Positions 1,037 through 46,604 of a DNA stretch of 46,604 nucleotides are shown here, in pieces; position 1 is the stretch's first letter; each line of letters starts with the position of its first letter. The notes beneath the pieces are model-generated. The model saw only the letters and a program-made list of their open reading frames with translations. It was not told the origin of the DNA and ran no database searches. The DNA lies in sequence record OQ243221; one strand, written 5' to 3'. This DNA is from Escherichia phage vB_EcoS-UDF157lw. A program made the position numbers and the translations under genes.

Positions 1037-1596
1037 TGTTTGATTTCGACGAAGATAAGTTAACTGATGACCAGGTGATGGAAGTCGCCAGGCAAGATAA
1101 CCTGCCGCCACTTCGTGTGGCAATCAATACTAATGGATACCGCCAATCATTCAATTTCTGGCCCAGCGCCGAAGAGATGCTGTGCGTCAAGTTGAGCTAC
1201 AAATACGGCGTCGTAGTGAGCATGATTAGACGCCAGGGCTGGAATGGAGTGGTTGGCATTCGATCTCTATACGAGGCAATCCGAAAGGTCCAGCCATTCG
1301 TCTGGCGCGAAGGGATTATGCATGACCTGACAAATAACATCATCCCAGAACTACAGGAGGCGGGAATTGTTTGCCTCATTGGCGATAAGATTTATGTTCA
1401 TCCGGCCCTGGTTGAGATGGATAAGGACGACGTGCAAAACTGGTGCAGTCAGTGCCGATCCGACGCGCCACGCTCAAACTACGTGCCACCGCAAACAACA
1501 ATCCATGGCTATGATGCCGATGAGGTGGAGAAGGCCATACAGTTCTACCGGAAAGCGAAAGCTCTCCTGAATGGTGAATATAGCACAAATTGCTAA
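1036..1596 (+). CDS. Truncated paralogue of the replication P-loop ATPase (N- and C-terminal domains only, 186 aa)
   Basis: Start overlaps previous stop (TAATG). N-terminus MFDFDEDKLTDDQVMEVARQDNLPPLRVAINTNGYRQS matches N-terminus of the 42577-44160 minus-strand protein; C-terminal GVVGIRSLYEAIRKVQPF...CLIGDKIYVHP matches its C-terminus; the ATPase core is absent. Confidence 0.7.
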   Translation: MFDFDEDKLTDDQVMEVARQDNLPPLRVAINTNGYRQSFNFWPSAEEMLCVKLSYKYGVVVSMIRRQGWNGVVGIRSLYEAIRKVQPFVWREGIMHDLTNNIIPELQEAGIVCLIGDKIYVHPALVEMDKDDVQNWCSQCRSDAPRSNYVPPQTTIHGYDADEVEKAIQFYRKAKALLNGEYSTNC

Positions 1597-1623
1597 ACAA
1601 TAAATTGGGTAGTCAGCTATGAT
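1581..1623 (+). promoter_or_regulatory. Composite promoter-like element: TAGCACaaaTTGCTAAA, 22 nt, TATGAT
   Basis: Palindrome TAGCA-N5-TGCTA overlapping the stop of the upstream gene; -10-like hexamer 22 nt downstream; leader ...AAACGAGAGGA before ATG 1655. Confidence 0.5.
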
Positions 1624-1654
1624 TACCCTATCAACCAAACGAGAGGAATAAAAG

Positions 1655-2126: not shown

Positions 2127-2426
2127 ATGAGTAAGTACGAAAAAGAGATTATTGGCCTGGACGGCACCAAGACTACGGTTGATGTATATCGCGTCATCGC
2201 AGCATTTGGCGTAACGGACCCGGCACTACAGCATGCCATCAAAAAGGTACTGTGCAGCGGCATTCGAACACGACATAAGGATTACCCTACCGACATCAAT
2301 GAGGCCATTGTATCGCTTCAGAAGGCCATAGAATTCCATGATCAAAGGGGCGCACATGTCCAGGAACTTATAGACAAGTATCGCAACGGACCTAAACATT
2401 ATCTTGATAGCTGGAGCAACAAATAG
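2127..2426 (+). CDS. Hypothetical protein (99 aa)
   Basis: ORF with RBS gagga 8 nt upstream; the stop codon is the TAG of the downstream TAGCAC motif. Confidence 0.55.
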   Translation: MSKYEKEIIGLDGTKTTVDVYRVIAAFGVTDPALQHAIKKVLCSGIRTRHKDYPTDINEAIVSLQKAIEFHDQRGAHVQELIDKYRNGPKHYLDSWSNK

Positions 2427-2466
2427 CACAAATTGCTAAACATCCATCGCAAGGATGCGTTACCAT
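2424..2466 (+). promoter_or_regulatory. Composite promoter-like element: TAGCACaaaTTGCTAAA, 22 nt, TACCAT (weak -10)
   Basis: Same architecture; spacer holds inverted repeat CATCC...GGATG; leader TATCGAAATGAGACGAGG. Confidence 0.4.
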
Positions 2467-4147: not shown

Positions 4148-4663
4148 ATGTCAGAAGAGAAAAAGATTCACCAGAAGATTGGCAACTTCAAGGAGCTATA
4201 CAATAAGAAGTATGGCGACATTGCCAATCTAAAGATTAACCACAGGTACACTCCTGAGCAGGTATTCGACATGGCCGTAAGGTATTTCAGCTGGGCTGAA
4301 GAGCAAGCGATTAAGGCCATTGAAACGGCGAGCTTTCAGGGTGTTGTAACGGAAAACCTTGTTCATAAGCCACGAATATTTACGATAACTGGATTCCAAC
4401 TTTTCTGCGGCGTTGGTCATAATGCCATCAGTAAATGGCGCTCTTCGCCTGGATTTGATGAGGTGATGGAGTTTGTGGATTCGGTAATCTTTGAGCAGAA
4501 GTATCAGCTTGGCGTTAACAACATCATCAACCCTGGACTGATTGGCAAAGACCTTGGCATCGATAAGCCGCAAGAGGTTAACATCAACAACGCTTCTAAT
4601 GCGGCAGTGAACGATGAAGAAGCGATCAAGGCTGCTCTCGAATCAGTAATTGATAAGCTATAG
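4148..4663 (+). CDS. Putative terminase small subunit (171 aa)
   Basis: Position immediately upstream of the terminase large subunit; strong RBS aggagga; own promoter-like region after terminator. Assignment is positional. Confidence 0.5.
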   Translation: MSEEKKIHQKIGNFKELYNKKYGDIANLKINHRYTPEQVFDMAVRYFSWAEEQAIKAIETASFQGVVTENLVHKPRIFTITGFQLFCGVGHNAISKWRSSPGFDEVMEFVDSVIFEQKYQLGVNNIINPGLIGKDLGIDKPQEVNINNASNAAVNDEEAIKAALESVIDKL

Positions 4664-4703
4664 CACTAATTGTCAAAACTCATGGATGAGTTATTGATAT
4701 CAT
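4661..4703 (+). promoter_or_regulatory. Composite promoter-like element: TAGCACtaaTTGTCAAA, 22 nt, TATCAT
   Basis: Motif overlaps terS stop; spacer contains inverted repeat CTCAT..ATGAG; precedes HNH gene. Confidence 0.45.
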
Positions 4704-19899: not shown

Positions 19900-19900
19900 A

Positions 19901-19943
19901 TAGCACTAATTGCTAAACAGAAATACCAAGGAAGGTTTACAAT
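19901..19943 (+). promoter_or_regulatory. Composite promoter-like element: TAGCACtaaTTGCTAAA, 22 nt, TACAAT
   Basis: Motif begins at the stop codon of the M-like gene; precedes the inserted 71-aa ORF. Confidence 0.5.
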
Positions 19944-27017: not shown

Positions 27018-27077
27018 TCGTTTCGATGGAGTAACTATAGCAAAGGCTTCTGCTGGAGTCTTTAGCAAATCGTGCTA
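27018..27077 (-). promoter_or_regulatory. Composite promoter-like element on minus strand: TAGCACgatTTGCTAAA, 23 nt, TGcTATAGT, leader CATCGAAACGA
   Basis: Reverse complement of 27018-27077 read directly; drives the lipoprotein operon. Confidence 0.5.
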
Positions 27078-27078
27078 T

Positions 27079-28639: not shown

Positions 28640-29608
28640 ATGAGCTTCAAGGTTTACACTAGCGACGAGTTAACCAACGAAGCCTACCACAAGGAGTCAG
28701 ACCATGTGTCTGGCTCTGGTCTGGCTCACATCTTCTCAACTTGCCCCGCTGCTTATAAGTTTGCAGAGCATGATGATAGCAATAAGGCGTTAAAGTTCGG
28801 TACATTAGCCCACACGGTTATTCTTGAAAACTATGTATTCGATGCGACTTACTATCGCCAGCCAGCGCAAGAAGAGTTTGAGGATCTGATTACTAGCAAG
28901 ACTGCTTTGGCAACTCGATTGAAGTCGATGGGTATTGCTGGAACATCTGGTAAGGATTATCCAGAATTAATGGAGATTCTGGCGCTGAGCGGTGAATCAC
29001 TTAACGTATGGTGGGATATTCAGCGCTCTAGCGAGGTTAAAGCGAACGGTCGCGAGATTGTATCAGCTAAAGACTTTGACACAGTACATGCGATGCGAGA
29101 GGTGCTGTGCGGCATTCCTGCATACAATGCGATAGTGAACAGTAAAACCGCTCAGCGAGAGTTATCAATCTTCGGTGAGATTAACGAGTGCGGCGTTAAG
29201 GTTCGTCTTGACCATGTCGATGTCGTTGATGATGTAGTTTATATCCGTGACTACAAGACGACTAGCGACGCATCTCCATCTGGATTTGGGAGATTGGCCT
29301 TCAAGCATGGTTACTTGCTAAAAATGGCGCTTCAGCATGATTTGTTTGTTCGCGCCTTTAATGAGAAGCGTCGAGTTGTTGTTCAGCTTCTTTGCCAGGA
29401 AAAGAAAAGCCCATTCCTTCCAATGTGCTACACGATAACAAAAGAGCACTTAAAGGTTGGTAGATTGCAATACATGAGCGCCCTATCCACATACAAGCAA
29501 TGCAAGAAACTTGATATTTGGCCTGGTTACGGATTTGGCGAAACAGAGATGGAACTGCAAGTTCCTGAGTATGAGATGAAGAAGTACGAAGATAGCACGA
29601 ATAGCTAA
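28640..29608 (+). CDS. Recombination exonuclease, PD-(D/E)XK family (RecE/YqaJ/lambda-Exo-like, 322 aa)
   Basis: Motif LDHVDVVDDVVYIRDYKTT (D..D..K-type nuclease core); adjacent to an Erf-family annealase. Confidence 0.65.
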   Translation: MSFKVYTSDELTNEAYHKESDHVSGSGLAHIFSTCPAAYKFAEHDDSNKALKFGTLAHTVILENYVFDATYYRQPAQEEFEDLITSKTALATRLKSMGIAGTSGKDYPELMEILALSGESLNVWWDIQRSSEVKANGREIVSAKDFDTVHAMREVLCGIPAYNAIVNSKTAQRELSIFGEINECGVKVRLDHVDVVDDVVYIRDYKTTSDASPSGFGRLAFKHGYLLKMALQHDLFVRAFNEKRRVVVQLLCQEKKSPFLPMCYTITKEHLKVGRLQYMSALSTYKQCKKLDIWPGYGFGETEMELQVPEYEMKKYEDSTNS

Positions 29609-29635
29609 AACGGTATTAAATCGATGGGGTATAGT
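29593..29635 (+). promoter_or_regulatory. Composite promoter-like element variant: TAGCACgaaTAGCTAAA, 20-22 nt, TATAGT, leader CATCGACAACAAAGAGAG
   Basis: Overlaps the exonuclease stop; hairpin CGATGGGGTA-TAG-TTACCTCATCG spans the -10. Confidence 0.45.
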
Positions 29636-29664
29636 TACCTCATCGACAACAAAGAGAGATAGAA

Positions 29665-34578: not shown

Positions 34579-34584
34579 TAATTT

Positions 34585-35058
34585 TTACTCTTTAGCTTTT
34601 CGTGCTTCTTCTCTTTCTTTCTTAACCTTTCGCCATGATTTACGCTGCGGCTTGGTTGCTAACTCAGCTTCTGTAACAACTCGAAGCATCTGACGCTTCT
34701 TGCATCGCAGTGTTAGAGGCTTGCCGTTACCGTCGAACTGTAAATCAGGTCGGCAGAATGTAGCCCTGAACCCCTCTCCAGTTCGCTTATATCGATTATG
34801 CGCAAGCTGTGCGCCGCGAGCTGAAATCATTCCCCGCTTACACCATTCTTCTACAGCCTGGCGCGTAACCTTTAGCTGCTTAGCTAGATTGGCCTTGCTG
34901 CCGTAGAAGTCCAATACAATCTCAAGGCGCGCCCTTAATCCCGCTCTCACTTCATCCTTTAGTACATAGTAACCTGATGGACGCTTACGCGGCTTCTTGT
35001 CTTCTGTGCGAATTGTTCCGTTGTTACCATTAAGAGTACGCTTGTCAATTGAATCCAT
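34585..35058 (-). CDS. Helix-turn-helix DNA-binding protein (Cro/YdaS-like, 157 aa)
   Basis: Motif GSKANLAKQLKVTRQAVEEWCKRGMIS; basic Lys/Arg-rich C-terminus; divergent from the helicase operon. Confidence 0.55.
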   Translation of the reverse strand: MDSIDKRTLNGNNGTIRTEDKKPRKRPSGYYVLKDEVRAGLRARLEIVLDFYGSKANLAKQLKVTRQAVEEWCKRGMISARGAQLAHNRYKRTGEGFRATFCRPDLQFDGNGKPLTLRCKKRQMLRVVTEAELATKPQRKSWRKVKKEREEARKAKE

Positions 35059-35072
35059 TTTCTCACCTCAAT

Positions 35073-35113
35073 AGCACTTTTTGTTAAACATTGGTTTAGA
35101 TGGATGTTATTAT
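35073..35113 (+). promoter_or_regulatory. Composite promoter-like element: TAGCACtttttGTTAAA, 21 nt, TATTAT
   Basis: Lies in the divergent intergenic region; the -10 sits inside the track ORF start, which argues for the downstream ATG 35151. Confidence 0.45.
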
Positions 35114-37094: not shown

Positions 37095-37483
37095 TGGTTA
37101 AGGTTTTTCACGACAAAACAAGCACGGACAAGGCTAAAGAGGTTGTTCACCAAATAAATTCAATAGCTTGGGTTCGCCACAACCATCCAGAGATATTTGC
37201 TTTTCACGTGAAGAATGAAGGTCTCAAGTCTATCGGCACAGCAATGAAGGACAAGCAGGAGGGAGTAATTAAGGGTGTATCAGATATTCTACTGATTGGA
37301 CCAAATGGCTTTGCCGCAATAGAGCTTAAGCGAGCAATAAAATCAGATAGCAAGGTTTCAAAGGAGCAAAAGGAGTTCCTGGAAAAGGTATCAGAAACAG
37401 GAGGTTACGCGGCAATCTGTTATGGGTTTGAAATGTTTAAGTTGGCAATTACAGATTATCTATCAAATAGCACGAATTGCTAA
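37094..37483 (+). CDS. VRR-NUC-type nuclease (129 aa)
   Basis: Motif GVSDILLIGPNGFAAIELKRA (PD-(D/E)XK-like D...E.K); start overlaps the helicase stop (TAATG). Confidence 0.6.
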   Translation: MVKVFHDKTSTDKAKEVVHQINSIAWVRHNHPEIFAFHVKNEGLKSIGTAMKDKQEGVIKGVSDILLIGPNGFAAIELKRAIKSDSKVSKEQKEFLEKVSETGGYAAICYGFEMFKLAITDYLSNSTNC

Positions 37484-37510
37484 AGAGATTTCGCAAGGAT
37501 GCGATATAGT
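37468..37510 (+). promoter_or_regulatory. Composite promoter-like element: TAGCACgaaTTGCTAAA, 22 nt, TATAGT, leader CATCGAAACGAAGAGAG
   Basis: Canonical copy; spacer holds CGCAAGGATGCG. Confidence 0.55.
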
Positions 37511-38151: not shown

Positions 38152-38153
38152 AT

Positions 38154-38195
38154 AGCACTTTTTGTTAAAACTAAAATACAAGGATGGATTATATT
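38154..38195 (+). promoter_or_regulatory. Composite promoter-like element: TAGCACtttttGTTAAA, 21 nt, TATATT
   Basis: Follows the stop of the previous gene. Confidence 0.45.
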
Positions 38196-38225
38196 AATTA
38201 CATTAGCAAATGAGAGGGTTAAGAG

Positions 38226-38587: not shown

Positions 38588-38841
38588 ATTTACCTGGTCT
38601 GGATTTTGATGAGAGTAAGTATCAGGTTGTGTTTTTTGGTGAGAAGCCTTATCGGAAGATTCCTTTCTCTGAGTGGATTCCTCCGGACTACCTCGATGTA
38701 CTGGTGCAAATTGAGATTGGTAAAGCTGAGTTGATGTACTATTCGCCAGGTTGCAATATGATGATGCCTAGTGAGTATTCACCAGCAATTTCTGCTTTAG
38801 AAACTGAGTTTCTTGATTACTGGCTAAAAGAAGTAAAATAG
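38584..38841 (+). CDS. Hypothetical protein (85 aa)
   Basis: ATGA overlap with the previous gene. Confidence 0.45.
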   Translation: MNLPGLDFDESKYQVVFFGEKPYRKIPFSEWIPPDYLDVLVQIEIGKAELMYYSPGCNMMMPSEYSPAISALETEFLDYWLKEVK

Positions 38842-38881
38842 CACTTTTTGTTAAAACACATCGCCATGGATGGCGTATAGT
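38839..38881 (+). promoter_or_regulatory. Composite promoter-like element: TAGCACtttttGTTAAA, 22 nt, TATAGT, leader CATCGAAACGAGAG
   Basis: Spacer holds hairpin CGCCAT-gg-ATGGCG. Confidence 0.5.
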
Positions 38882-38908
38882 GTGTTCATCGAAACGAGAG
38901 ACGATTCA

Positions 38909-38977: not shown

Positions 38978-38992
38978 ACAGGAAATTAAATA

Positions 38993-40126
38993 ATGGCTAT
39001 AGCTAAAATCACCAACGAAGAGTTAAAGCAAGAACTGGCTAACGGTATGACTAACAAGGCAATCGCAGAGAAGTACGGTATGAATATTCGTAACGTAGAG
39101 CTGCGTCGCAGCAAGTTGGCTAAGGCTGGGGATGGTCACGGTCGCGATGTGAGTAACCTAATTCCTCAGGGCTACATGGTTAAAGGTGTATCTAGCCTTG
39201 TTGATAATGATGGCAATGTGAAGTTGCAATGGGTTAAGTCCTCTATTGATGCAGAGAAGCTTGAGGAGATGATGAATCAAGCGCGAGAGGCATTCTCTAG
39301 CGAGCTACCAAAAGAAAAAGCAGTTAAATCTGAAGGTCTGAATTTTGATGAAGATACTTTAGCTATGTATCCAGTATTTGACCTTCACATTGGCGCAATG
39401 GCCCACAAGCATGAGTGCGGAGAAAACTACGACACAGCAACGGCAGAGAAAGTAATGAACGATTATTTTGACTACGCCGTACAGAAATCTCCAAATTCAA
39501 AGAATGCTGTACTAGTGCTAGGAGGTGATCTGCTTCATTATGATTCTTTGGAAGCCAAAACTCCAGCCAGTGGTCACATCCTGGACAGTGACAGTCGCTA
39601 CGCCAAGATTGTTTATGTTTGCATTCGAGCGGTTCGCCGCGCAATTCGAAACATGCTTAGCAAACATGAAAACGTAGAGGTTAAAGTTATATCTGGTAAT
39701 CATGATGAAAGTGGTATGGTTTGGTTGCGGGCTGCGCTTGCTGCATTTTATGAGGAAGAGCCACGCGTTAGTATTGATGTTAGTCCCGCGGCAATGATGG
39801 TAACTAAGTTTGGTTCTACAATGCTTGGTTTCACTCACGGGCATCAAATGCGTAAAGCTGATACTCGCCTTTCGGTTATGGCTACTGACTGGCGACGTGA
39901 CTTTGGTTTAAGTGATTATGTATACACCCACTCAGGCCACTGGCATTCACAGAAGATTACAGAGACAAATCTTGGTATTGATGAGGTTCATGGTCAGCTT
40001 GGTTCACCAGATGCATATAGTGCGAATGGTGGATGGCGCTCACAAAGGCAGGCCGCGGTAATCATCTATCATAAAGAGTTTGGTGAGGTTGGTCGCTTTA
40101 TCTGCCGTCCAGAAATGTTCAAATAA
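38993..40126 (+). CDS. Calcineurin-like metallophosphoesterase with N-terminal HTH-like domain (377 aa)
   Basis: Phosphoesterase motifs D-L-H (FDLHIG), GGDLLH, GNHDE, GH.H (HSGHWH); N-terminal about 110 aa with HTH-like TNKAIAEKYGMNIRNVELRRSKL. Confidence 0.8.
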   Translation: MAIAKITNEELKQELANGMTNKAIAEKYGMNIRNVELRRSKLAKAGDGHGRDVSNLIPQGYMVKGVSSLVDNDGNVKLQWVKSSIDAEKLEEMMNQAREAFSSELPKEKAVKSEGLNFDEDTLAMYPVFDLHIGAMAHKHECGENYDTATAEKVMNDYFDYAVQKSPNSKNAVLVLGGDLLHYDSLEAKTPASGHILDSDSRYAKIVYVCIRAVRRAIRNMLSKHENVEVKVISGNHDESGMVWLRAALAAFYEEEPRVSIDVSPAAMMVTKFGSTMLGFTHGHQMRKADTRLSVMATDWRRDFGLSDYVYTHSGHWHSQKITETNLGIDEVHGQLGSPDAYSANGGWRSQRQAAVIIYHKEFGEVGRFICRPEMFK

Positions 40127-40145
40127 TATCACTTTTTGTTAAAGC
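40127..40145 (+). promoter_or_regulatory. Motif variant TATCACtttttGTTAAA without clear -10
   Basis: Upstream half degenerate (TATCAC); no TATAGT-like hexamer at the expected spacing. Confidence 0.25.
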
Positions 40146-40191
40146 CCTTCGAGGCTTTTGAGATGCGTCAGCTACAGATATAGGAATCAAA

Positions 40192-40389: not shown

Positions 40390-40432
40390 ATAGCACGAAT
40401 TGCTAAAACGAAAATCAAAAGATGGGGTATAG
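40390..40432 (+). promoter_or_regulatory. Composite promoter-like element: TAGCACgaaTTGCTAAA, 22 nt, TATAGT, leader ...AAACGAGAGGA
   Basis: Hairpin GATGGGGTA-TAG-TTACCCCATC spans the -10. Confidence 0.55.
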
Positions 40433-40465
40433 TTACCCCATCTAAACAAACGAGAGGATACAAAG

Positions 40466-40839: not shown

Positions 40840-40851
40840 GAGATTATCAAA

Positions 40852-41025
40852 ATGACTAAATTATTCTGCGTTAGCAACAAATCAAAATCACTGCCTTTCA
40901 CTGTAAACAACCCTTACAGTGGTGAGTACCAGGGGGATGGTAATTATAAGATTTATGGCGATGACATGACTTGGATCTTCGCTCCCATTGATGGAGAGCT
41001 GGTGGAATTCATTATAGCAGACTAA
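40852..41025 (+). CDS. Hypothetical protein (57 aa)
   Basis: Hand-translated ORF MTKLFCVSNKSKSLPFTVNNPYSGEYQGDGNYKIYGDDMTWIFAPIDGELVEFIIAD; followed by terminator. Confidence 0.4.
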   Translation: MTKLFCVSNKSKSLPFTVNNPYSGEYQGDGNYKIYGDDMTWIFAPIDGELVEFIIAD

Positions 41026-41051
41026 CTTATAAGAAACATCAACTTGCAAAC

Positions 41052-41080
41052 AGGCGGCCTTTATGGCTGCCTTTTTTCTT
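41052..41080 (+). terminator. Rho-independent terminator upstream of lysis cassette
   Basis: GGCGGCC-ttta-GGCTGCC hairpin (one G-U) followed by TTTTTTCTTTT. Confidence 0.65.
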
Positions 41081-41139
41081 TTATGTCAAAGTTTAATATC
41101 TGGTATTATTTAATCAAATCAACTTAAAGAGGCCGCAAC

Positions 41140-41355
41140 ATGAAGCATTTCTATGACGCAGCCGCCTTGTCCGGTAGCGGAGTAGCTATGGGTGGCGGTT
41201 TATCTGACAACACAATCATCGGCATTATTGGCTTAGTTATCGCCGTATGCTTTGGTATTTTTGGCGCATGGCTGCGCTGGCGTGACAGTAAGGCGCTCCA
41301 TAAAGCACTTGAAGATGGGGATATTCGAGAGGCAATGAGAATCAGGAGTAAATAA
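41140..41355 (+). CDS. Holin (71 aa; pinholin-like)
   Basis: Small protein with Gly-rich segment and hydrophobic TMD IIGIIGLVIAVCFGIFGAWL, charged C-terminus; directly upstream of a SAR endolysin. Confidence 0.65.
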   Translation: MKHFYDAAALSGSGVAMGGGLSDNTIIGIIGLVIAVCFGIFGAWLRWRDSKALHKALEDGDIREAMRIRSK

Positions 41356-41837
41356 TGAGCATTAAAAATAAGGTAATTGGTTCTGCTGTGGCTGGTGCCA
41401 TGGCTCTGGCGGTTCCGTTCCTTAATGAGCATGAAGGCGTTGAGTACAAGCCTTACAAGGATGTTGCTGGGGTATGGACTATTTGCGCAGGAATCACTGG
41501 TCCTGACGTTATTCTGGGCAAGGTTTACACACAGCGAGAGTGTGATGCACTACTTATGAAGCACTTGTCAATTCATCGTGCCGCTGTTGATAAAGCGTTA
41601 AAGGTTGATGTTCCAGTTAGCACCAGGGCTGCCTTGTATAGTTTCTCATTCAACGTGGGAACTAATGCGATGCGCAAATCAACGGCAATGAGGAAGATTA
41701 ATTCCGGAGATATCTATGGCGGTTGCAATGCCTTAAGGCTATTTAACAAGATTACAATTAATGGTAAAAAGGTTGTATCTAAGGGTTTGGATAATAGACG
41801 TGACGCGGAGGTGAAGATATGCGTTTCGGAGTTGTAG
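41355..41837 (+). CDS. SAR endolysin (lysozyme, P21 R-like, 160 aa)
   Basis: N-terminal Gly/Ala-rich signal-anchor (VIGSAVAGAMALAVPF) followed by EGVEYKPYKDVAGVWTICAGITG...YSFSFNVG lysozyme core closely resembling phage P21 R. Confidence 0.9.
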   Translation: MSIKNKVIGSAVAGAMALAVPFLNEHEGVEYKPYKDVAGVWTICAGITGPDVILGKVYTQRECDALLMKHLSIHRAAVDKALKVDVPVSTRAALYSFSFNVGTNAMRKSTAMRKINSGDIYGGCNALRLFNKITINGKKVVSKGLDNRRDAEVKICVSEL

Positions 41838-42223
41838 TTCTGGCAATTATCTTGCTGACAGGGTGCTCTGCTATGTCAGCCATTTCTGATTTCTTACCAG
41901 TAAAGGATGGCGTAGAGGCAACCGCGCAGGTTGGTGAGTCCAACCAGAAAACAGGAGTTGGATTGTCAAATCAAACAGACAAATCTAGCTCAACAGAAAG
42001 CGACATGCGCAACTCAACTAACAGAGACGTAGATTCATCAAGCCAGAAAAAGACAGCCGCTACAGGACTATCAGCCAACACAATAACAGCTGAAAAGATT
42101 GAAATTCATAGCACTGAAAATTCTGGCTTTGACTCTTTAGTCTGGGGTATTCTGGCTGGATTAGTTTCAGGTTTGCTAACTTACTTCGCTTTAAGATTCG
42201 CAGGAAACAAAAAAGGAGCCTAA
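41819..42223 (+). CDS. Unimolecular spanin (u-spanin, T1 gp11-like, 134 aa)
   Basis: N-terminal lipoprotein signal with lipobox LTGC and C-terminal TMD LVWGILAGLVSGLLTYFAL, the defining u-spanin topology. Confidence 0.75.
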   Translation: MRFGVVVLAIILLTGCSAMSAISDFLPVKDGVEATAQVGESNQKTGVGLSNQTDKSSSTESDMRNSTNRDVDSSSQKKTAATGLSANTITAEKIEIHSTENSGFDSLVWGILAGLVSGLLTYFALRFAGNKKGA

Positions 42224-42238
42224 TGGCTCCTTTATTTT
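42208..42238. terminator. Bidirectional terminator between convergent rightward and leftward operons
   Basis: GGAGCC-taat-GGCTCC flanked by AAAAAA upstream and TTTATTTT downstream. Confidence 0.65.
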
Positions 42239-42572
42239 ACGCGAACAGTTGGTCGTCTGTCATTTCTTTTATGGTCATCATCTCATTGGTGTACTTATCA
42301 CTCTCACCTCCGAGGCACCTAAAGCTAAAACCGAATGGTCGCTTCGTGCTTCCTTTGCTCCAGTAACTGCCATTAACTCCATCGATGTAACCTTCAGTCA
42401 TGCATCTTGCCAGAAACTCCTTTGACGCAGATGATGCAAAGTAACGCGCATTAACTCCAGCTGCCTTAGCCATTCTTTCACATTCTTTGTGGCGGTAAAT
42501 GAATACCGCCAGGTGCTGCCTGTTAAACTTTTCGTAGCTCTCGCAGAACTTGAACACATCAAGGATGAACAT
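42237..42572 (-). CDS. Hypothetical protein (111 aa)
   Basis: ORF in track, last gene of the leftward operon. Confidence 0.5.
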   Translation of the reverse strand: MFILDVFKFCESYEKFNRQHLAVFIYRHKECERMAKAAGVNARYFASSASKEFLARCMTEGYIDGVNGSYWSKGSTKRPFGFSFRCLGGESDKYTNEMMTIKEMTDDQLFA

Positions 42573-42576
42573 TTAA

Positions 42577-44160
42577 TTACCCCAGCAGCCGTGGATTGAT
42601 ATATACCTTGTCACCAATCAGGCAGGTATAGTTTTTATCATCAAGCATCGGGAGTAAGTGGTCTTTAATTTTAGCCATAACACCAGCCTGTGACTCGAAA
42701 GGTCGAACCTTACGCGCAGCTTCATAAAGTGAACGCAAACCCACAACTCCTTTACTGTTCTTGCCTTGCTTGATAAGGATATCAATTAACTTGTTCATCT
42801 CAGCGTTATCGCCAGCATGACCAGCTGCGTTAGCAGAAGATAAGTAAGTCTTGCTAAGTTCTTCAAACATCAATAAAGCCTCCTGCATCGTTTCCAGTCC
42901 AATCTCCCTGGACTTCTGCGGACTACCGCCATTTGGATTAAACCAGTTACGTATGGTGTGAAGAACGGCAGCAAGGCGAATAACCTGTTTATCCATTTTA
43001 CCTAGTGCGCCACGGAGCATTGTGTGTGAATACTTGCCGCCATCCGCAAGGTGTGGCTCCATTTCCTGTCGAGCACGGTTAAGGTGCTTCATTGCTGAGT
43101 TACTAATAGTCAACTTCACATCTTGCTCACTCATAATTTCATGAACAAGACGGAAGTAATCAGCCTTCAACGCTCCGTCAATCGGCTCATATGTTGACTC
43201 GCCATTATCATCGACGAAAACACGCTCACCAAGGAATGACTTTTCACGCACAAGCAAGAAACGTTCGGATACACCAATACCGCGAGCACCAGCATTCATG
43301 ATTGCGACTATTGTTTCATCCTGCGCAATTACAGAAATACACCCCATAGCAATAAAGCTCATGTTGTTCTCTGCGTTCGCACGCGCGATAGATACGTTAC
43401 CAGCATCCCAGGCCTTAAGTACCAGTTCGCTGTTTGTTTTCTTTGTTCCATCACCATAGGTCATGCCCAGCAGTGAGTTGACGCTCGTCGCCTCATCCGA
43501 GATGACAGCGAAGCTACCCTGACGATGGTTAATGCGTGCCAGACCTTCAGGAGTAGTATCAGATACAGGGAATACGATGTCGCAAAGTTTCTCGAGCTTA
43601 TCTTCCAGCTCCTCCTTCTCCTCAAACAAACCAGCCATCTCAGAAGGCGACTTCTCCTGCTTCATTTCTTTAGCCAGAGCCGACAGCTTGGCCATAATCT
43701 TTTTACGGTCACGCTTACGCAGATCGTTTAGTCGCTCAGTCTCTGCAATCATTGGAGCAAGAGACAGCGAGTTAATGGCAGATTTACCAGTTGATGGAGG
43801 CTGGCTGGTCACTACATACAGTGATGTTGGTTGTTGAGTTCCGTGATACTCAACCGTAAAGCGACCTAACATAGCTGCCGAGATGCAACCAAGGAAGTGC
43901 ATATAAGCAGATGATTCAGGAAACTGAACAGAACGAGCAATGTTGCTTGATAGTTTGCCAACTACATCATAGTCGTTACCAAGCGAGATAACAGGATACT
44001 TGTCGCCAGTAGAATCAATCTCAACCGGAGCTTTCCAGAATGATGCGCTCTGGCGATAACCGTTCGCATTAATAGCAACACGTAAAGGAGGTAATCCATC
44101 CTGAGCGGCAACAGCCATTACTTGTTCAACAGTCAATTTGTCATCATTAAAATCAAACAT
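42577..44160 (-). CDS. Putative replication-associated P-loop NTPase (helicase/primase-associated, 527 aa)
   Basis: Deviant Walker A PPSTGKS and Walker B-like FAVISDEATS; RBS GAGAGAG before ATG 44160; N- and C-termini are paralogous to the 1036-1596 protein. Confidence 0.6.
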   Translation of the reverse strand: MFDFNDDKLTVEQVMAVAAQDGLPPLRVAINANGYRQSASFWKAPVEIDSTGDKYPVISLGNDYDVVGKLSSNIARSVQFPESSAYMHFLGCISAAMLGRFTVEYHGTQQPTSLYVVTSQPPSTGKSAINSLSLAPMIAETERLNDLRKRDRKKIMAKLSALAKEMKQEKSPSEMAGLFEEKEELEDKLEKLCDIVFPVSDTTPEGLARINHRQGSFAVISDEATSVNSLLGMTYGDGTKKTNSELVLKAWDAGNVSIARANAENNMSFIAMGCISVIAQDETIVAIMNAGARGIGVSERFLLVREKSFLGERVFVDDNGESTYEPIDGALKADYFRLVHEIMSEQDVKLTISNSAMKHLNRARQEMEPHLADGGKYSHTMLRGALGKMDKQVIRLAAVLHTIRNWFNPNGGSPQKSREIGLETMQEALLMFEELSKTYLSSANAAGHAGDNAEMNKLIDILIKQGKNSKGVVGLRSLYEAARKVRPFESQAGVMAKIKDHLLPMLDDKNYTCLIGDKVYINPRLLG

Positions 44161-44203
44161 TATTATCATCTCTCTCTAAATGCCCCCGAAGGGGCTTGAC
44201 TAT

Positions 44204-44383
44204 TTACTTGATACGAACTTCAATCATCTGGCCTTTATGAGGAAGATACAGCTTTGCGCGACCTCTAATCATTACGGTGATGATATTCTCCTTAAGGTCA
44301 ACGTGAAGTACTTTGCGGAACAGTGGCCCCATTTTTACCATCATGCCAGGTTTGATGTTTTCGATAGTAGTCATGATATCCAT
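44204..44383 (-). CDS. Hypothetical protein (59 aa)
   Basis: Hand-translated MDIMTTIENIKPGMMVKMGPLFRKVLHVDLKENIITVMIRGRAKLYLPHKGQMIEVRIK; preceded by promoter element and CATCGAAACGA leader. Confidence 0.4.
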   Translation of the reverse strand: MDIMTTIENIKPGMMVKMGPLFRKVLHVDLKENIITVMIRGRAKLYLPHKGQMIEVRIK

Positions 44384-44421
44384 TTTTTAGCCCTTTTAAT
44401 GTATTTCGTTTCGATGAAGAG

Positions 44422-44465
44422 AATATATCAATTTTTGTTGTTAAGTCCTTTAGCAAAAAGTGCTA
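44422..44465 (-). promoter_or_regulatory. Composite promoter-like element (minus): TAGCACtttttGCTAAA, 23 nt, TGaTATATT, leader CATCGAAACGA
   Basis: Reverse complement read directly. Confidence 0.5.
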
Positions 44466-44582
44466 TTAAAGACCAACCAGACATTTGCCAACTACAACAG
44501 CGATTGCGCCCATGAAGCCAAAGAAACCAAACTTAATTACTTGTTCCATTACCGCATCAACTGCTTTAGAGATGTTTTTCAT
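44466..44582 (-). CDS. Small hydrophobic protein (38 aa, MKNISKAVDAVMEQVIKFGFFGFMGAIAVVVGKCLVGL)
   Basis: Strong RBS AAGGTGA; C-terminal TM-like segment; the track N-terminal extension translates through a terminator hairpin and is rejected. Confidence 0.35.
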   Translation of the reverse strand: MKNISKAVDAVMEQVIKFGFFGFMGAIAVVVGKCLVGL

Positions 44583-44612
44583 TTTGTTCACCTTAGTTTT
44601 TGTCTTCTTGAT

Positions 44613-44663
44613 GGAAACAAATATACCCGCCGAAGCGGGTACTGTCATTAGCAAAAAGTGCTA
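44613..44663 (-). promoter_or_regulatory. Overlapping terminator and promoter-like element (minus): TAGCACtttttGCTAA, hairpin ACCCGC-ttcg-GCGGGT, TATATT
   Basis: The hairpin and U-rich tract sit inside the spacer between the palindrome and the -10-like hexamer. Confidence 0.45.
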
Positions 44664-44870
44664 TTTTTTTAAGTGCCCTGGCGCATAGCATTTTCCATCC
44701 TTCTTATGCAAAACCCACCCAGCATATTTAAGTTGCCTTGCACAATCAGAAAAGTTCTCGCCCGCAGCGTCCGTATAGTGTGGCATAAAATAAGAACCAT
44801 CATCATTTGACTCAGTTGAGCACTTCTTACAGTCGCAATAAACAGCGATGGAATAACCTGAAACAATCAT
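44661..44870 (-). CDS. Hypothetical Cys-rich small protein (69 aa)
   Basis: CDCKKC ... C ... C pattern suggests a zinc-binding protein. Confidence 0.45.
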   Translation of the reverse strand: MIVSGYSIAVYCDCKKCSTESNDDGSYFMPHYTDAAGENFSDCARQLKYAGWVLHKKDGKCYAPGHLKK

Positions 44871-45220
44871 TTGTAAGCCGCCTCAAACTTATACATCCCA
44901 TAACCCACATCAAAGCCAACTTCTTCATCACGCGTCAACTGCCAGCCCTCGCCGTCTTCATCATAAATATACCCAGCGTTACGACCAAGTGATGCAGTCA
45001 TTGATACCTGGTAACGCTTACCCTTACTGAAACTCTTCTTGAGTGGTGACTTGTGGTTCACGAAAGTGCAAAGCAAAGTCTTGGTCTTGACGTAACGACC
45101 CCGGCCAGTGAGATTTTGCCATTTACCATGAATCTTGATTTGCTCAATACCATCTTTAACGCGAGCTTTAAACAGATTGTTATCTGAGCTGATCCAGTTT
45201 TTAGTGATAGTGGTAGCCAT
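44867..45220 (-). CDS. Hypothetical protein (117 aa)
   Basis: ORF in track; overlapping stop/start with the downstream gene. Confidence 0.5.
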   Translation of the reverse strand: MATTITKNWISSDNNLFKARVKDGIEQIKIHGKWQNLTGRGRYVKTKTLLCTFVNHKSPLKKSFSKGKRYQVSMTASLGRNAGYIYDEDGEGWQLTRDEEVGFDVGYGMYKFEAAYK

Positions 45221-45245
45221 TACTATTTTCCTTTTTGGTTTGTTA

Positions 45246-45548
45246 TTAGTTAGCGTTATGACGTTCGATATAGTCGCGGATTGTTTCGCCTACGCTTTTA
45301 GCGGCACCAAAAGTGCCCTTTGCGTGGCGTGAATCGCGGTACGTCTGGAAGAATTTACGAGCGATGTTTGCGAACATTGAACCAGTCACGCGAGCATCAC
45401 CGAAATTTGTTTCGATAGCGTTGCTAATGCCATCCTTGAACTCATTTTCAGTCATGAACATCTCTGCCATGCCAGCAGTCTCGAAAAGGTTAGCTAATTC
45501 ATTCATGTTGTTATGGTCTTCGGCTGTAAACAGGTTCATGTTAATCAT
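45246..45548 (-). CDS. Hypothetical acidic protein (100 aa)
   Basis: ORF in track; preceded on the minus strand by promoter element and CATCGAAACGAAAC leader. Confidence 0.5.
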   Translation of the reverse strand: MINMNLFTAEDHNNMNELANLFETAGMAEMFMTENEFKDGISNAIETNFGDARVTGSMFANIARKFFQTYRDSRHAKGTFGAAKSVGETIRDYIERHNAN

Positions 45549-45581
45549 CTTCGTGATTCCTTAGTTTCGTTTCGATGAGAT

Positions 45582-45625
45582 GAATATACAATAAAAGCCC
45601 CGAAGGGCTTTAGCAATTCGTGCTA
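45582..45625 (-). promoter_or_regulatory. Composite promoter-like element (minus): TAGCACgaaTTGCTAAA, hairpin AGCCC-ttc-GGGGCT, TGTATATT
   Basis: Reverse complement read directly; the TAG of the motif is the stop codon of the upstream 50-aa ORF. Confidence 0.5.
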
Positions 45626-45775
45626 TTTCTTTGCTGCTTTTGCAATTGCCTTCTGGACGATGTTGAAGCTCTCAATCAAATCTTCTTTGAAGTAGTCACC
45701 AACAGGCCAACCCTTACCGCTGTACTTTGCTATAGTTTCTAGATCGTAATAGTTCAAATCAGATGGTTTAAGCAT
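45623..45775 (-). CDS. Small hypothetical protein (50 aa)
   Basis: Hand-translated MLKPSDLNYYDLETIAKYSGKGWPVGDYFKEDLIESFNIVQKAIAKAAKK; start abuts the upstream stop (TAAATG). Confidence 0.35.
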   Translation of the reverse strand: MLKPSDLNYYDLETIAKYSGKGWPVGDYFKEDLIESFNIVQKAIAKAAKK

Positions 45776-46015
45776 TTACCTCACCTCATCAAAAGTTGCG
45801 ACACCAGGGATAAACATTCCGACCTTCCAACCTGCGATAGCAATCCATCCAGAATCGTGCTTGTGCGGTCGCTCGGCGCCATTAATCACCCACTCGTTCG
45901 GGATTGTCTTGCCGTTAATGATTAGCAGCTCAGCTTCGTATACAGAGCCTTTTACAAATGGCGTCAAAACCTTTTTGTCTGTACTGTTAATAACGTTTGT
46001 GCAGCGAATTTTCAT
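45776..46015 (-). CDS. Hypothetical protein (79 aa)
   Basis: ORF in track. Confidence 0.5.
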   Translation of the reverse strand: MKIRCTNVINSTDKKVLTPFVKGSVYEAELLIINGKTIPNEWVINGAERPHKHDSGWIAIAGWKVGMFIPGVATFDEVR

Positions 46016-46025
46016 ATCTCAATCC

Positions 46026-46205
46026 TCAAATAAATGGTAAACATTCGACGCAGCCAAGTCCATCGCAGCACAGAAATTCATCTTCTGACTGGAATTGCTT
46101 AGCCAAATCAATGTCCAGCTTTCCGCGCAGCACAAGGTTGGTGTAAACTTCGTTAAGTCCAATCAGTGCGCATTCGTGGCGCAAATCGTCTTTATCAATC
46201 TTCAT
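46026..46205 (-). CDS. Small Cys-rich hypothetical protein (59 aa)
   Basis: Hand-translated; C-terminal CCDGLGCVEC; start overlaps the upstream stop. Confidence 0.4.
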   Translation of the reverse strand: MKIDKDDLRHECALIGLNEVYTNLVLRGKLDIDLAKQFQSEDEFLCCDGLGCVECLPFI

Positions 46206-46389
46206 ACCGCTCTACCTCGAAGTTGTATACCATTACGTTTCTATCATGCTTGTTCTTTATCACCATTGACTCAAGCTCTTCGTATACAGCCACTACATTG
46301 TAAACACCACCAGGCTCAAGGCCGTAGAATTCGTATTCTTCATCGTCAAAACCATCCGTTTTACTTAGTGCTGTTATTTTTACCTTCAT
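46195..46389 (-). CDS. Hypothetical acidic protein (64 aa), first gene of the leftward operon
   Basis: RBS GAGGAG; promoter element immediately upstream. Confidence 0.5.
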   Translation of the reverse strand: MKVKITALSKTDGFDDEEYEFYGLEPGGVYNVVAVYEELESMVIKNKHDRNVMVYNFEVERYED

Positions 46390-46417
46390 ATCTATCTCCT
46401 CGTTGTTGATGAGTTTA

Positions 46418-46460
46418 CTATAGCCTTGCCATCCCCATTTTTCTTTAGCAAAAAGTGCTA
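46418..46460 (-). promoter_or_regulatory. Composite promoter-like element (minus): TAGCACtttttGCTAAA, 21 nt, TATAGT, leader CATCAACAACGAGGAG
   Basis: Reverse complement read directly; drives the leftward small-gene operon. Confidence 0.5.
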
Positions 46461-46604
46461 TTCGTCAGATTTATGGATTGTTGCAGGCATTGCGATGATT
46501 AGCATGACTATTACACATAAAGCAATATTTCATCGAGTGCAACAGGTTTATTGATTGTTGCCAGTTTGGCAATGATGGATGGATGGATTGAATGAAAGGA
46601 GGTT

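What the first reader, a model, noticed from the sequence alone, without database searches (positions are those of the whole stretch)
44613..44663. Terminator hairpins placed inside promoter spacers (overlapping stop-and-restart signals)
At several sites a GC hairpin with a U-rich tail lies between the palindrome and the -10-like hexamer, or spans the -10 itself (44620-44640 ACCCGC/GCGGGT; 45590-45608 AGCCC/GGGGCT; 40415-40440 GATGGGGTA/TACCCCATC; 29621-29644; 38861-38875). The U-tract of the terminator doubles as the AT-rich -10. This compact design would terminate upstream transcription while re-initiating just downstream, and the hairpin could also modulate promoter access.
Basis: seen in the sequence. 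Interest (0 to 1): 0.45.

Follow-up and report, generated by a model that had tools for sequence, protein, structure and literature searches.

The report
Promoter cassettes with built-in RNA hairpins
In this T1-like coliphage, a short control cassette repeated between genes combines a promoter with an RNA hairpin; at a few copies the hairpin looks like a true stop signal, a design already described in T4-type phages.

Summary
The hairpins exist at every cited coordinate and are far commoner than chance. The window is a Rogue1-like T1-type phage (Drexlerviridae). Site 44613-44663 (- strand) is one of 16 copies of a ~75-nt intergenic cassette. Each has the upstream stop codon inside a palindromic repeat ATAGCAC-N5-G(C/T)TA, then 21-23 nt (22 commonest), a sigma70-type -10 (TATAGT/TATATT), CATCGAAACGA, a ribosome-binding site and ATG. 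Across nine related genomes, 53% of 75 non-redundant cassettes fold at -10 kcal/mol or better, against 3.8% of shuffles. The stems differ between copies yet stay complementary. They fold better as sense RNA than antisense, so they act on read-through transcripts.

Only two cited sites (44623-44642, 45595-45610) are canonical terminator-like hairpins with a UUCG loop and a T-rich tail. 38862-38875 is borderline. The two hairpins that span the -10 (40420-43, 29621-46) have A-rich tails and are not terminators in the sense direction.

The repeat was already published (TLS phage, 2024, function unknown). A near-identical phage's GenBank record annotates an overlapping promoter and terminator at this site. 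T4-type phages have the same design (PeSLs). This is a variant of a known kind, and function remains inferred.

The parts
44649..44664 (-). Palindromic direct repeat ATAGCACTTTTTGCTA (TAGCA-N5-TGCTA). The TAG stop of upstream ORF 44661-44870 lies inside it.
   Evidence: Matches the published 21-nt repeat of TLS.
44643..44648 (-). -35-like hexamer ATGACA, 17 nt from TATATT. Specific to this copy and conserved in its orthologues.
   Evidence: (10 of 12 match). Annotated as a promoter in AHP42.
44623..44642 (-). GC-rich hairpin GUACCCGC-UUCG-GCGGGUAU inside the promoter spacer. Candidate intrinsic terminator or attenuator.
   Evidence: Conserved in ESCO41, Opt-719, Sd1, Sf12, phiEB49 and JK06.
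44613..44622 (-). T-rich tail ATTTGTTTCC (6 T in the first 8). It overlaps the -10 and replaces the usual TACCCCATCG downstream sequence.
44620..44625 (-). -10 hexamer TATATT, 23 nt downstream of the palindrome. The inferred start site is about 44612-44613.
44468..44583 (-). Downstream small ORF (about 38 aa, membrane-like) served by this cassette. Its end abuts the next cassette at 44422-44466.
   Evidence: Annotated in AHP42.
45583..45626 (-). Second terminator-type cassette: palindrome 45611-45626, hairpin AAGCCC-UUCG-GGGCUU 45595-45610, T tract 45587-45594, -10 TATATT 45583-45588.
   Evidence: TransTermHP terminator annotated in AHP42.
40390..40443 (+). Cassette with a 10-bp hairpin 40420-40443 that spans the -10 (TATAGT 40428-40433). 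It has no U tail in the sense direction.
29592..29646 (+). Cassette with an 11-bp hairpin 29621-29646 that spans the -10 (TATAGT 29630-29635). No U tail.
38838..38881 (+). Cassette with a small hairpin CGCCA-UGGA-UGGCG 38862-38875 ending just before the -10 (38876-38881). Borderline T-rich tail.
40126..40160 (+). Variant palindrome ATATCACTTTTTGTTA followed directly by a weak hairpin AGCC/GGCU and TTTTGAG. No clear -10 at the usual distance.
1580..1633 (+). Cassette with a 9-bp hairpin GGGUAGUCA/UGAUUACCC that spans the -10 (TATGAT 1618-1623).
37467..37510 (+). Cassette with a weak spacer hairpin UCGCA-AGGA-UGCGA.
2423..2466 (+). Cassette (-10 TACCAT) with a weak hairpin.
4660..4703 (+). Cassette (-10 TATCAT) with the weak hairpin AACUCA-UGGA-UGAGUU.
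19900..19943 (+). Cassette (-10 TACAAT) with no convincing hairpin.
27034..27078 (-). Cassette (-10 TATAGT, 23-nt gap).
35071..35113 (+). Cassette upstream of the helicase gene. Its palindrome lies 13 bp from the start of the divergent regulator gene.
38152..38195 (+). Cassette (-10 TATATT) with no convincing hairpin.
44422..44466 (-). Cassette (-10 TATATT) with no convincing hairpin.
46417..46461 (-). Cassette (-10 TATAGT) with weak GAUGG/UCAUC pairing across the -10.
34585..35058 (-). Cro-like helix-turn-helix regulator, 54% identical to T1 Pir (Orf23). Best candidate reader of the palindrome.
   Evidence: T1 experiments in PMC6737242.

Best explanation
The site is one copy of a composite promoter-plus-hairpin cassette that fills the short gaps between co-directional genes of T1-type phages.

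Promoter half (inferred). The 16-nt dyad ATAGCAC-N5-GCTA is centred about 42 bp upstream of the start site. It replaces a -35 element and is probably read by a dimeric phage regulator; the Pir homologue at 34585-35058 is the best candidate. Host sigma70 polymerase uses the -10 found 21-23 nt downstream (22 nt in most) and starts at the CA of CATCGAAACGA.

Hairpin half. The base-unconstrained stretch between the dyad and the start site has been filled with a stem-loop. That stem-loop can form only in RNA arriving from the upstream gene.

At 44623-44642 and 45595-45610 the stem-loop is a GC-rich UUCG-tetraloop hairpin followed by a T-rich run that merges with, or abuts, the -10. Here it most likely acts as a leaky intrinsic terminator or attenuator for upstream transcripts, while the cassette's own promoter starts a fresh transcript just downstream.

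The more common hairpins that span the -10 and lack a U tail (40420-40443, 29621-29646, 1607-1628) also act on read-through RNA. They probably do so as 3'-end-forming or stabilising structures, or as weak attenuators, rather than as canonical terminators.

Shown: the sequence architecture, its statistics, its conservation and its strand bias.
Inferred: the start site, the activator, and termination.
For: Repeat and geometry:
- The palindrome has 16 matches against 0.55 expected.
- It is always co-directional with the genes, and the upstream stop codon is embedded in it.
- 135 cassettes in 9 genomes have TAnnnT at 22 nt (99), 23 nt (25) or 21 nt (11). The hexamers are TATAGT, TATTAT, TATATT and TATAAT, with T39, A40 and T44 invariant in the alignment.

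Promoter function:
- T1 Pir activates the dam promoter fragment (at most 150 bp). That fragment contains a cassette with an annotated terminator hairpin between palindrome and -10.
- Pir represses its own promoter, where the palindrome lies downstream of a consensus sigma70 promoter (PMC6737242).
- The window encodes a 54%-identical Pir homologue with a Cro-like helix-turn-helix.

Hairpins:
- Strong enrichment over shuffles and genomic controls.
- Stems differ between copies but stay complementary: GGGGTA/TACCCC, AAGGCCATT/AGTGGCCTT, GGGAGTAA/TTACTCCC, AGCGGTCGTTG/TAATGGCCGCT.
- A G-C to A-T double change occurs between the near-identical hairpins of TH21/12397V and TH27/phiEB49.
- Covariation score is 0.249 against 0.197 in shuffles (0 of 500 reach it) and is highest at slide 0.
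- 39 of 42 strong hairpins fold better as sense RNA. Internal G:T pairs number 30 against 9 A:C. Base composition alone predicts the opposite sign.

Terminator subclass:
- The scan flags 44642-44623 and 45611-45594 on the gene strand.
- T-rich tails are specific to GC tetraloop spacer hairpins: 5.4 against 3.0 T in 8. When the stem reaches the -10, the downstream sequence turns T-rich.
- AHP42's GenBank record annotates a terminator overlapping a promoter at this site, and a TransTermHP terminator at the 45611 site.
- The T1 record annotates the same kind of hairpins as terminators.
- The same design is experimentally supported in T4-type phages (PMC2839356).
Against: - No 5' or 3' end mapping exists for any T1-type phage in the searchable literature.
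- The embedded U tracts (ATTTGTTT, TTTTATTG) are poorer than those of the stand-alone terminators of the same genome, which have runs of 5-7 T. Termination is therefore probably partial.
- In orthologues of the 45611 site the hairpin is invariant but the T tract decays to TTATGATG.
- About half of all cassettes carry hairpins without any U tail, so termination cannot be the general role of the hairpin.
- Pir as reader of the palindrome is unproven. The T1 hol promoter responds to Pir without a palindrome in the 150 bp upstream. The T1 orf65 promoter, which has a cassette, is reported to be Pir-independent.
Confidence: 0.6

Rival explanations
1. The hairpins, including those at 44623-44642 and 45595-45610, are not terminators. 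They are RNA 3'-end protectors or processing landmarks. Polycistronic read-through RNA is cut in the A-rich leader and trimmed back to the hairpin, which sets different stabilities for the upstream and downstream cistrons.
For: Most cassette hairpins lack a U tail (1.4 T in 8) yet are strongly selected on the sense strand. The hairpin is more conserved than the T tract at the 45611 orthologues.
Against: T-rich tails co-occur specifically with GC tetraloop spacer hairpins, and the downstream sequence turns T-rich when the stem reaches the -10. That pattern is what selection for a U tract would produce. UUCG and GAAA tetraloops with 6-9 bp GC stems are the classical terminator form.
Confidence: 0.2
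2. The cassette is not a promoter. The oriented repeat is a roadblock ('stoperator') or an RNA-level element such as an antiterminator loading hairpin (UAGCA-N5-UGCUA) placed ahead of terminators. The TATAGT hexamer is not a -10.
For: The repeat is oriented with transcription and sits in intergenic gaps, as the TLS authors noted. The GCTA to GTTA variants keep a G.U pair in an RNA stem. Some copies are followed directly by a hairpin with no good -10 (40126).
Against: The spacing to a hexamer is fixed at 21-23 nt (22 in 99 of 135), and that hexamer has the conservation pattern of a sigma70 -10. A conserved CA lies about 7 nt downstream. T1 fragments containing the cassette have promoter activity in reporters. 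Stem sequence is conserved rather than covarying in the palindrome.
Confidence: 0.08
3. The hairpins act as DNA. A cruciform or single-strand hairpin around the -10 would gate polymerase access, analogous to the hairpin promoters of phage N4.
For: Many stems bracket or include the -10.
Against: There is strong sense-over-antisense asymmetry and an excess of G:T over A:C pairs, which duplex-symmetric DNA structures would not show. Hairpin position relative to the -10 varies across three registers. The stems are short for cruciform extrusion. No phage RNA polymerase gene is reported in the family.
Confidence: 0.04
4. The cassettes are maintained mainly as recombination sites for shuffling small genes, as proposed for PeSLs. 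On this view the hairpin and repeat are by-products.
For: Many homology breakpoints against JK06, phiEB49 and Rtp fall within about 80 nt of a cassette. Two small genes lie between cassettes 44649 and 44451 that are absent from ESCO41, Opt-719, Sd1 and Sf12.
Against: Breakpoints tend to fall in intergenic DNA anyway. Recombination does not explain the strand-biased stems, the covariation, or the fixed spacing to the -10. This role is not exclusive of a regulatory one.
Confidence: 0.05

Closest known systems
PeSLs (promoter-early stem-loops) of T4-type phages RB49/phi1, PST and nt-1 (Arbiol 2010, PMC2839356; Comeau 2014, PMC4122927)
   Same: [quoted passage not shown] Both combine a promoter with a stem-loop placed between the upstream promoter element and the -10, or overlapping the -10. 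Both are proposed to stop upstream transcription and restart it. Both are associated with small genes and indel boundaries (window).
   Different: PeSLs carry a consensus sigma70 -35 and -10 with an AT-rich upstream region, and they occur in myoviruses. Here the -35 is replaced by a conserved dyad about 42 bp upstream, which implies a regulator. Only the 44649 copy also has a -35-like ATGACA. One PeSL stem-loop was shown to terminate in a lacZ assay; none has been tested here.
21-nt direct repeat aaATAGCACnnnTTGnTAAAA of phage TLS, also stated to occur in T1, Rtp and Rogue1 (PMC11447400)
   Same: It is the same sequence with the same orientation relative to transcription and about the same distance to start codons (about 76 nt; 78-81 nt here). 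The same three central variants occur.
   Different: The paper leaves the function open (stoperator, enhancer site or UP element). It does not report the fixed spacing to a -10, the dyad symmetry, or the hairpins. Its tables do show two repeats directly followed by terminators (DR12/T62 and DR10/T57).
Intrinsic (Rho-independent) terminators
   Same: The hairpins at 44623-44642 and 45595-45610 have GC-rich stems of 6-8 bp and UUCG tetraloops. They have a T-rich tail on the transcribed strand and lie downstream of a co-directional gene.
   Different: Their U tracts are interrupted and weaker than those of the genome's stand-alone terminators. The hairpins that span the -10 have no U tract at all.
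Activator-dependent promoters with a dyad overlapping the -35 position (class II CRP/FNR; Mu Mor and C; lambda cI at PRM). From general knowledge, not tested here.
   Same: There is a good -10, no -35, and a dyad centred about 42 bp upstream of the inferred start.
   Different: The binding protein and the start site are inferred. The dyad sequence TAGCA-N5-TGCTA matches none of those operators.
Stoperators of mycobacteriophage L5 (analogy raised in PMC11447400)
   Same: Many oriented copies sit in short intergenic gaps along transcription units.
   Different: A fixed distance to a -10 and reporter promoter activity are not stoperator properties. The core here is symmetric.

Membership tests
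Intrinsic (Rho-independent) terminator | GC-rich stem with a short loop | tested here: met
   44623-44642: 8 bp with 5 GC and a UUCG loop. 45595-45610: 6-7 bp with 4 GC and a UUCG loop.
Intrinsic (Rho-independent) terminator | U-rich tract immediately 3' of the stem on the transcribed strand | tested here: inconclusive
   Met at 44649 (6 T in 8) and 45611 (5 in 8). Borderline at 38838 (4 in 8). Not met at 40390 and 29592 (0 in 8). The tracts are interrupted and weaker than the runs of 5-7 T in stand-alone terminators.
Intrinsic (Rho-independent) terminator | RNA 3' ends, or termination in vitro, at the U tract | not testable with these tools
   No Term-seq or in vitro data were found for T1-type phages.
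PeSL-type composite promoter/terminator cassette | Repeated intergenic cassette from upstream stop codon to downstream start codon | tested here: met
   16 copies in the window, with stop codons in or at the repeat and a ribosome-binding site plus ATG 78-81 nt downstream at the two sites measured.
PeSL-type composite promoter/terminator cassette | Stem-loop between the upstream promoter element and the -10, or overlapping the -10 | tested here: met
   48 spacer-type and 78 -10-spanning or overlapping hairpins among 135 cassettes, strongly enriched over shuffles.
PeSL-type composite promoter/terminator cassette | Consensus sigma70 -35 and -10 (early promoter) | tested here: not met
   The -10 is present. 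The -35 is absent at the proper spacing in all copies except 44649, where ATGACA lies 17 nt from TATATT. The conserved dyad takes its place.
PeSL-type composite promoter/terminator cassette | Association with indel or mosaic boundaries | tested here: inconclusive
   Many BLAST breakpoints fall within about 80 nt of cassettes, and there is a cassette-flanked two-gene indel. No control against other intergenic gaps was run.
Drexlerviridae 21-nt direct repeat (TLS DR) | Consensus aaATAGCACnnnTTGnTAAAA, oriented with transcription, about 76 nt upstream of start codons | tested here: met
Class II-type activator-dependent promoter | Dyad operator centred about -41 to -44, good -10, no -35 | tested here: met
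   Geometry follows from the 21-23 nt gap (22 in most) plus the inferred start 7 nt after the hexamer. The start site itself is inferred.
Class II-type activator-dependent promoter | A defined activator binds the dyad and is required for transcription | not testable with these tools
   Indirect evidence only. T1 Pir activates a cassette-containing dam fragment and autorepresses. However, the T1 orf65 cassette is reported to be Pir-independent.
L5-type stoperator | Repressor site that blocks elongation and is independent of promoter elements | tested here: not met
   Fixed spacing to a sigma70-type -10, and promoter activity of cassette fragments in T1.

The most novel reading that the evidence does not exclude
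Across Drexlerviridae, almost every intergenic promoter cassette carries a sense-strand RNA hairpin that overlaps the cassette's own -10 and start site. The hairpin therefore exists only in read-through RNA. The U-less hairpins that span the -10 (about half of the cassettes) may be a family-wide insulator that ends, or marks the end of, the upstream message by a non-canonical route. Candidate routes are hairpin-dependent termination assisted by a regulator bound at the dyad about 15-30 bp behind the polymerase, or programmed processing. If so, the stop of one transcript would be coupled to regulator-dependent restart of the next within about 60 nt. The three central variants of the dyad may then define temporal classes.
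Probability: 0.25. Interest if true: 0.6.

Novelty: new variant of a known kind. Interest (0 to 1): 0.4.

Why it matters
T1-type phages are common contaminants and therapy candidates, yet their transcription programme is essentially unmapped. The 2024 TLS paper found only three sigma70-like promoters and left the 21-nt repeat unexplained.

Reading the repeat as the upstream half of a regulator-dependent promoter would supply the missing 15-20 promoters per genome. Reading the embedded hairpins as signals acting on upstream RNA would explain how about 80 tightly packed genes are split into separately controlled units. It also points to a likely regulon for the Pir-type regulator.

The work also extends the composite promoter/terminator cassette idea from T4-type myoviruses to an unrelated siphovirus family. 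This gives concrete, mutable targets for engineering these phages.

Tried and rejected
- Pattern scan of IMG/VR for the repeat. It returned mostly unrelated contigs and fragmentary loci, so complete GenBank genomes were used instead.
- Literature searches for transcript-end mapping in T1-type phages found nothing.
- The T1 (2004) and Rtp (2006) genome papers are not held, so what they say about 'transcriptons' is known only through the TLS paper.
- A single fixed pairing register across all cassettes gave only a modest signal: 51.5% of cells paired against 47.5% in shuffles. The hairpins use several registers, so the per-cassette folding test is the appropriate one.
- Rfam returned only a tRNA.
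- The repeat's TTGCTA as a -35 was rejected because the 22-nt gap is too long for sigma70.
- TGCTAAAAC as an extended -10 was rejected because it lacks the final T.
- An UP-element reading was rejected as the full explanation. The invariant positions are the GC-containing half-sites, and two of the three central variants lack the T run.
- T1 Orf65 as a general reader of the repeat was rejected because it has no homologue in the window, Rtp, JK06 or phiEB49.
- Chance was rejected.

Full report
**Identity of the window.** The 42000-46604 segment is 99.3% identical to Enterobacteria phage vB_EcoS_Rogue1 and 95-97% identical to AHP24, AHS24, C119 and phiKP26. These are Rogunavirus members of the T1-type family Drexlerviridae. 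Genes run on the + strand over most of the window and on the - strand at 42.2-46.0 kb.

**What is at 44613-44663.** Read on the gene (-) strand, the sequence is as follows:

...cacTTAaaaaaATAGCACTTTTTGCTA-ATGACA-GTACCCGC-TTCG-GCGGGTAT-ATTTGTTTCCATCAAGAAGACAAAAACTAAGGTGAACAAAATG

- The TAG stop of the upstream ORF (44661-44870) lies inside the palindrome ATAGCACTTTTTGCTA (44649-44664).
- An 8-bp hairpin with a UUCG loop (44623-44642) follows.
- The end of the hairpin and its T-rich tail overlap TATATT (44620-44625).
- A 38-codon ORF starts at 44583.
- The consensus scan lists this as both the best sigma70-like promoter of the region (ATGACA-17-TATATT, 10 of 12) and a terminator-like site on the - strand.

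**The palindrome belongs to a repeated cassette.** The pattern occurs 16 times against 0.55 expected. It is always oriented with the local genes. Aligning the copies gives this architecture:

- ATAGCAC-N5-G(C/T)TA(AA), then 21-23 nt (22 commonest)
- TATAGT, TATATT or a similar hexamer, then about 6 nt
- (T)CATCGAAACGA
- a Shine-Dalgarno sequence and ATG

Nine Drexlerviridae genomes were scanned: the window, T1, Rtp, TH21, TH27, two Veterinaerplatzvirus genomes, JK06 and phiEB49. Of the palindrome hits, 135 have TAnnnT at 22 nt (99), 23 nt (25) or 21 nt (11). The hexamers are TATAGT (45), TATTAT (22), TATATT (20), TATAAT (11) and TATGAT (10). In a gapless alignment of 61 non-redundant copies, hexamer positions 1, 2 and 6 are invariant. 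These are the bases sigma70 reads most strictly in a -10 element (general knowledge). There is no -35 at 16-18 nt. The dyad TAGCA-N5-TGCTA would be centred about 42 bp upstream of a start at the conserved CA, which is the geometry of activator-dependent promoters. Klebsiella phage GH-K3 (Webervirus) has the same cassette.

**What the literature says.**
- The 2024 re-annotation of phage TLS reports this element as a 21-nt direct repeat, aaATAGCACnnnTTGnTAAAA. It has 21 copies, lies in the direction of transcription about 76 nt before start codons, and has three central variants. The authors say similar repeats occur in T1, Rtp and Rogue1. They leave the function open (stoperator, enhancer site or UP element), find only three sigma70-like promoters, and find no phage polymerase or sigma gene. 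Their table shows two repeats immediately followed by predicted terminators, without comment.
- In T1, the Cro-like regulator Pir (Orf23) activates the dam and hol promoter fragments and represses its own promoter and that of recE. The fragments were at most 150 bp upstream of the start codon.
- In the T1 sequence, the dam fragment contains a cassette with the annotated terminator 38973-39001 between palindrome and -10. The pir fragment has a consensus sigma70 promoter with the palindrome downstream of it, which fits autorepression.
- Two results argue against a simple one-regulator picture. The hol fragment has no palindrome. The orf65 promoter, which has a cassette, was reported to be Pir-independent.
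- The window encodes a 54%-identical Pir homologue (34585-35058, -) with a sub-threshold Cro/YdaS helix-turn-helix match. T1 Orf65 has no homologue here.

**The hairpins are a general, selected feature.**
- For 75 non-redundant cassettes, the 44 nt around the -10 fold with a mean energy of -10.3 kcal/mol. Shuffles that keep the hexamer give -4.8 (sd of the mean 0.24).
- 53% of cassettes reach -10 kcal/mol or better, against 3.8% of shuffles and 10% of genomic windows anchored on similar hexamers.
- Stems differ between copies but remain complementary. Examples are GGGGTA/TACCCC, AAGGCCATT/AGTGGCCTT, AGGGGAAT/ATTCCCCT, GGGAGTAA/TTACTCCC and AGCGGTCGTTG/TAATGGCCGCT.
- One near-identical hairpin found in four genomes shows a G-C to A-T double change plus wobble-compatible single changes: TCGGTGAGGTGGTG/TATCACCTCATCGA in TH21 and TCGGTGAAGTGGTG/TATCACTTCATCGA in TH27.
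- A single fixed register gives a modest but significant signal. The covariation score is 0.249 against 0.197, with 0 of 500 shuffles reaching it, and it is best at slide 0.

**The hairpins act as sense-strand RNA.**
- 39 of 42 strong hairpins fold better as sense than as antisense RNA (p about 4e-6).
- Internal G:T pairs outnumber A:C pairs 30 to 9.
- Shuffles show that base composition alone would favour the antisense strand: +0.87 ± 0.20 kcal/mol, against -1.29 observed.
- Many stems include bases upstream of the inferred start site. The relevant RNA must therefore come from the upstream gene.

**Two kinds of hairpin.** Among 79 non-redundant cassettes (a slightly different anchoring window gives 79 here rather than the 75), four groups were found:

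| Group | Number | Tail |
|---|---|---|
| GC-rich stems with short loops (mostly 4 nt: UUCG, GAAA, UCCG), inside the spacer or ending on the -10 | 11 | T-rich: 5.4 T in 8, against 3.0 at the same positions in other cassettes |
| Hairpins that span or overlap the -10 | 37 | A-rich: 1.4 T and 3.7 A in 8 |
| Weaker spacer hairpins | 10 | not assessed |
| Little or no hairpin | 21 | not applicable |

In the first group, when the stem reaches the -10 the usual downstream TACCCCATCG is replaced by T-rich sequence such as TTTGTTTCC. That is what selection for a U tract would produce.

In this window the terminator type is represented by 44623-44642 and 45595-45610. Site 38862-38875 is marginal, and 40143-40156 is a weak hairpin after a variant palindrome with no clear -10. 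The type that spans the -10 is represented by 40420-40443, 29621-29646 and 1607-1628.

**Conservation of the cited sites.** The 44649 hairpin (TACCCGC/GCGGGTA) and its ATGACA are kept in JK06, phiEB49 (loop UCCG), ESCO41, Opt-719, Sd1 and Sf12, which span five genera. The 45611 hairpin is likewise invariant, but its T tract decays from TTTTATTG to TTATGATG or TTATGCTG. The embedded U tracts are also poorer than those of the stand-alone terminators in the structural-gene region, which have runs of 5-7 T. These sites are therefore best seen as partial terminators or attenuators.

**Prior annotation of this exact arrangement.** The RefSeq record of AHP42 is 99% identical here. It carries a rho-independent terminator (40384-40410) overlapping a sigma70-like promoter (40389-40417) at the position equivalent to window 44615-44648. 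It also carries a TransTermHP terminator equivalent to 45590-45610. The T1 record annotates several such hairpins as terminators.

**Closest known system.** In T4-type phages, PeSLs are repeated intergenic cassettes of a sigma70 early promoter plus a stem-loop. The stem-loop is most often located between -35 and -10 or overlapping the -10. One stem-loop reduced lacZ expression about as strongly as the rrnB T1 terminator. The cassettes are proposed to stop upstream transcription, restart it, and mediate gene shuffling. The present cassettes share the layout and the logic. They differ in using a conserved dyad in place of the -35. Consistent with the shuffling idea, many homology breakpoints with JK06, phiEB49 and Rtp lie within about 80 nt of a cassette.

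**Verdict.** The 'terminator in the promoter spacer' reading is well founded for two of the five cited sites. It does not apply to the hairpins that span the -10; these are selected RNA structures of still unknown role. The concept is already known from PeSLs, the repeat is published, and the overlap at this very site is already annotated. What is new:
- the link between the repeat, a -10 at fixed distance and the Pir-type regulator;
- the family-wide, strand-biased hairpin signal.

All functional steps (start site, activator, termination) remain inferred.

Noticed in passing
window 15730-15764 (+): A strong terminator, AAGCCCCTTCACAGGGGCTTTTTTT, follows the major tail gene. Its loop and 3' arm carry a -35-like TTCACA, and its T tract runs into TGTTATAAT (extended -10; 11 of 12 sigma70 match). 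This is a second kind of terminator/promoter overlap, without the palindrome.
   Followed up: partly
window, all 16 cassettes (for example 2424-2426, 4661-4663, 38839-38841, 44661-44663, 1594-1596, 29606-29608): The stop codon of the upstream ORF is embedded in the palindrome (TAG of ATAGCAC, or TAA of GCTAAa) or abuts it. Coding sequence and control element overlap.
   Followed up: partly
window 44170-44665 versus L130-L133 (ESCO41, Opt-719, Sd1, Sf12); breakpoints: Two small genes between cassettes 44649 and 44451 are absent from relatives, where the 44649-type cassette directly precedes the helicase gene. Many BLAST breakpoints against JK06, phiEB49 and Rtp lie within about 80 nt of a cassette. 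This suggests cassette-mediated gene shuffling, as proposed for PeSLs.
   Followed up: partly
window 1580, 2423, 4660, 19900 versus 27063-46446: The central 5 nt of the palindrome fall into classes. CAAAT or CTAAT occur in the structural-gene half, and CGAAT or CTTTT in the early and replication half. These may be temporal classes and correspond to the A, G and T groups of the TLS paper.
   Followed up: no
window 35071-35086 and 34585-35058 (-): The palindrome of the helicase cassette lies 13 bp from the start codon of the divergent Pir-homologue gene. The arrangement is the same in T1, where Pir represses its own promoter.
   Followed up: partly
L123 (T1) about 30250-30377: The T1 recE promoter fragment has a consensus sigma70 promoter and no palindrome. 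It still carries the conserved start-region motif CATCGTAAACGA, so that motif is not tied to the palindrome.
   Followed up: no
window 34552-34608 (-): A degenerate palindrome, GAAGCACGAAAAGCTA, lies in the 3' end of the regulator gene. It is followed by a strong terminator (34579-34552) ahead of the primase gene.
   Followed up: no
window 3771-3843 (+): A tRNA gene (Rfam RF00005, 57.6 bits). Related phages are described as carrying one tRNA-Arg.
   Followed up: no
window cassettes 37467, 38838, 38152, 2423; Rtp and phiEB49 homologues: A conserved (A/T)GGATG lies just upstream of the -10. It can pair either with an upstream CA-ended arm (small AGGA- or UGGA-loop hairpins whose inner stem bases covary) or with the CATC at the start site. 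This suggests alternative structures.
   Followed up: no
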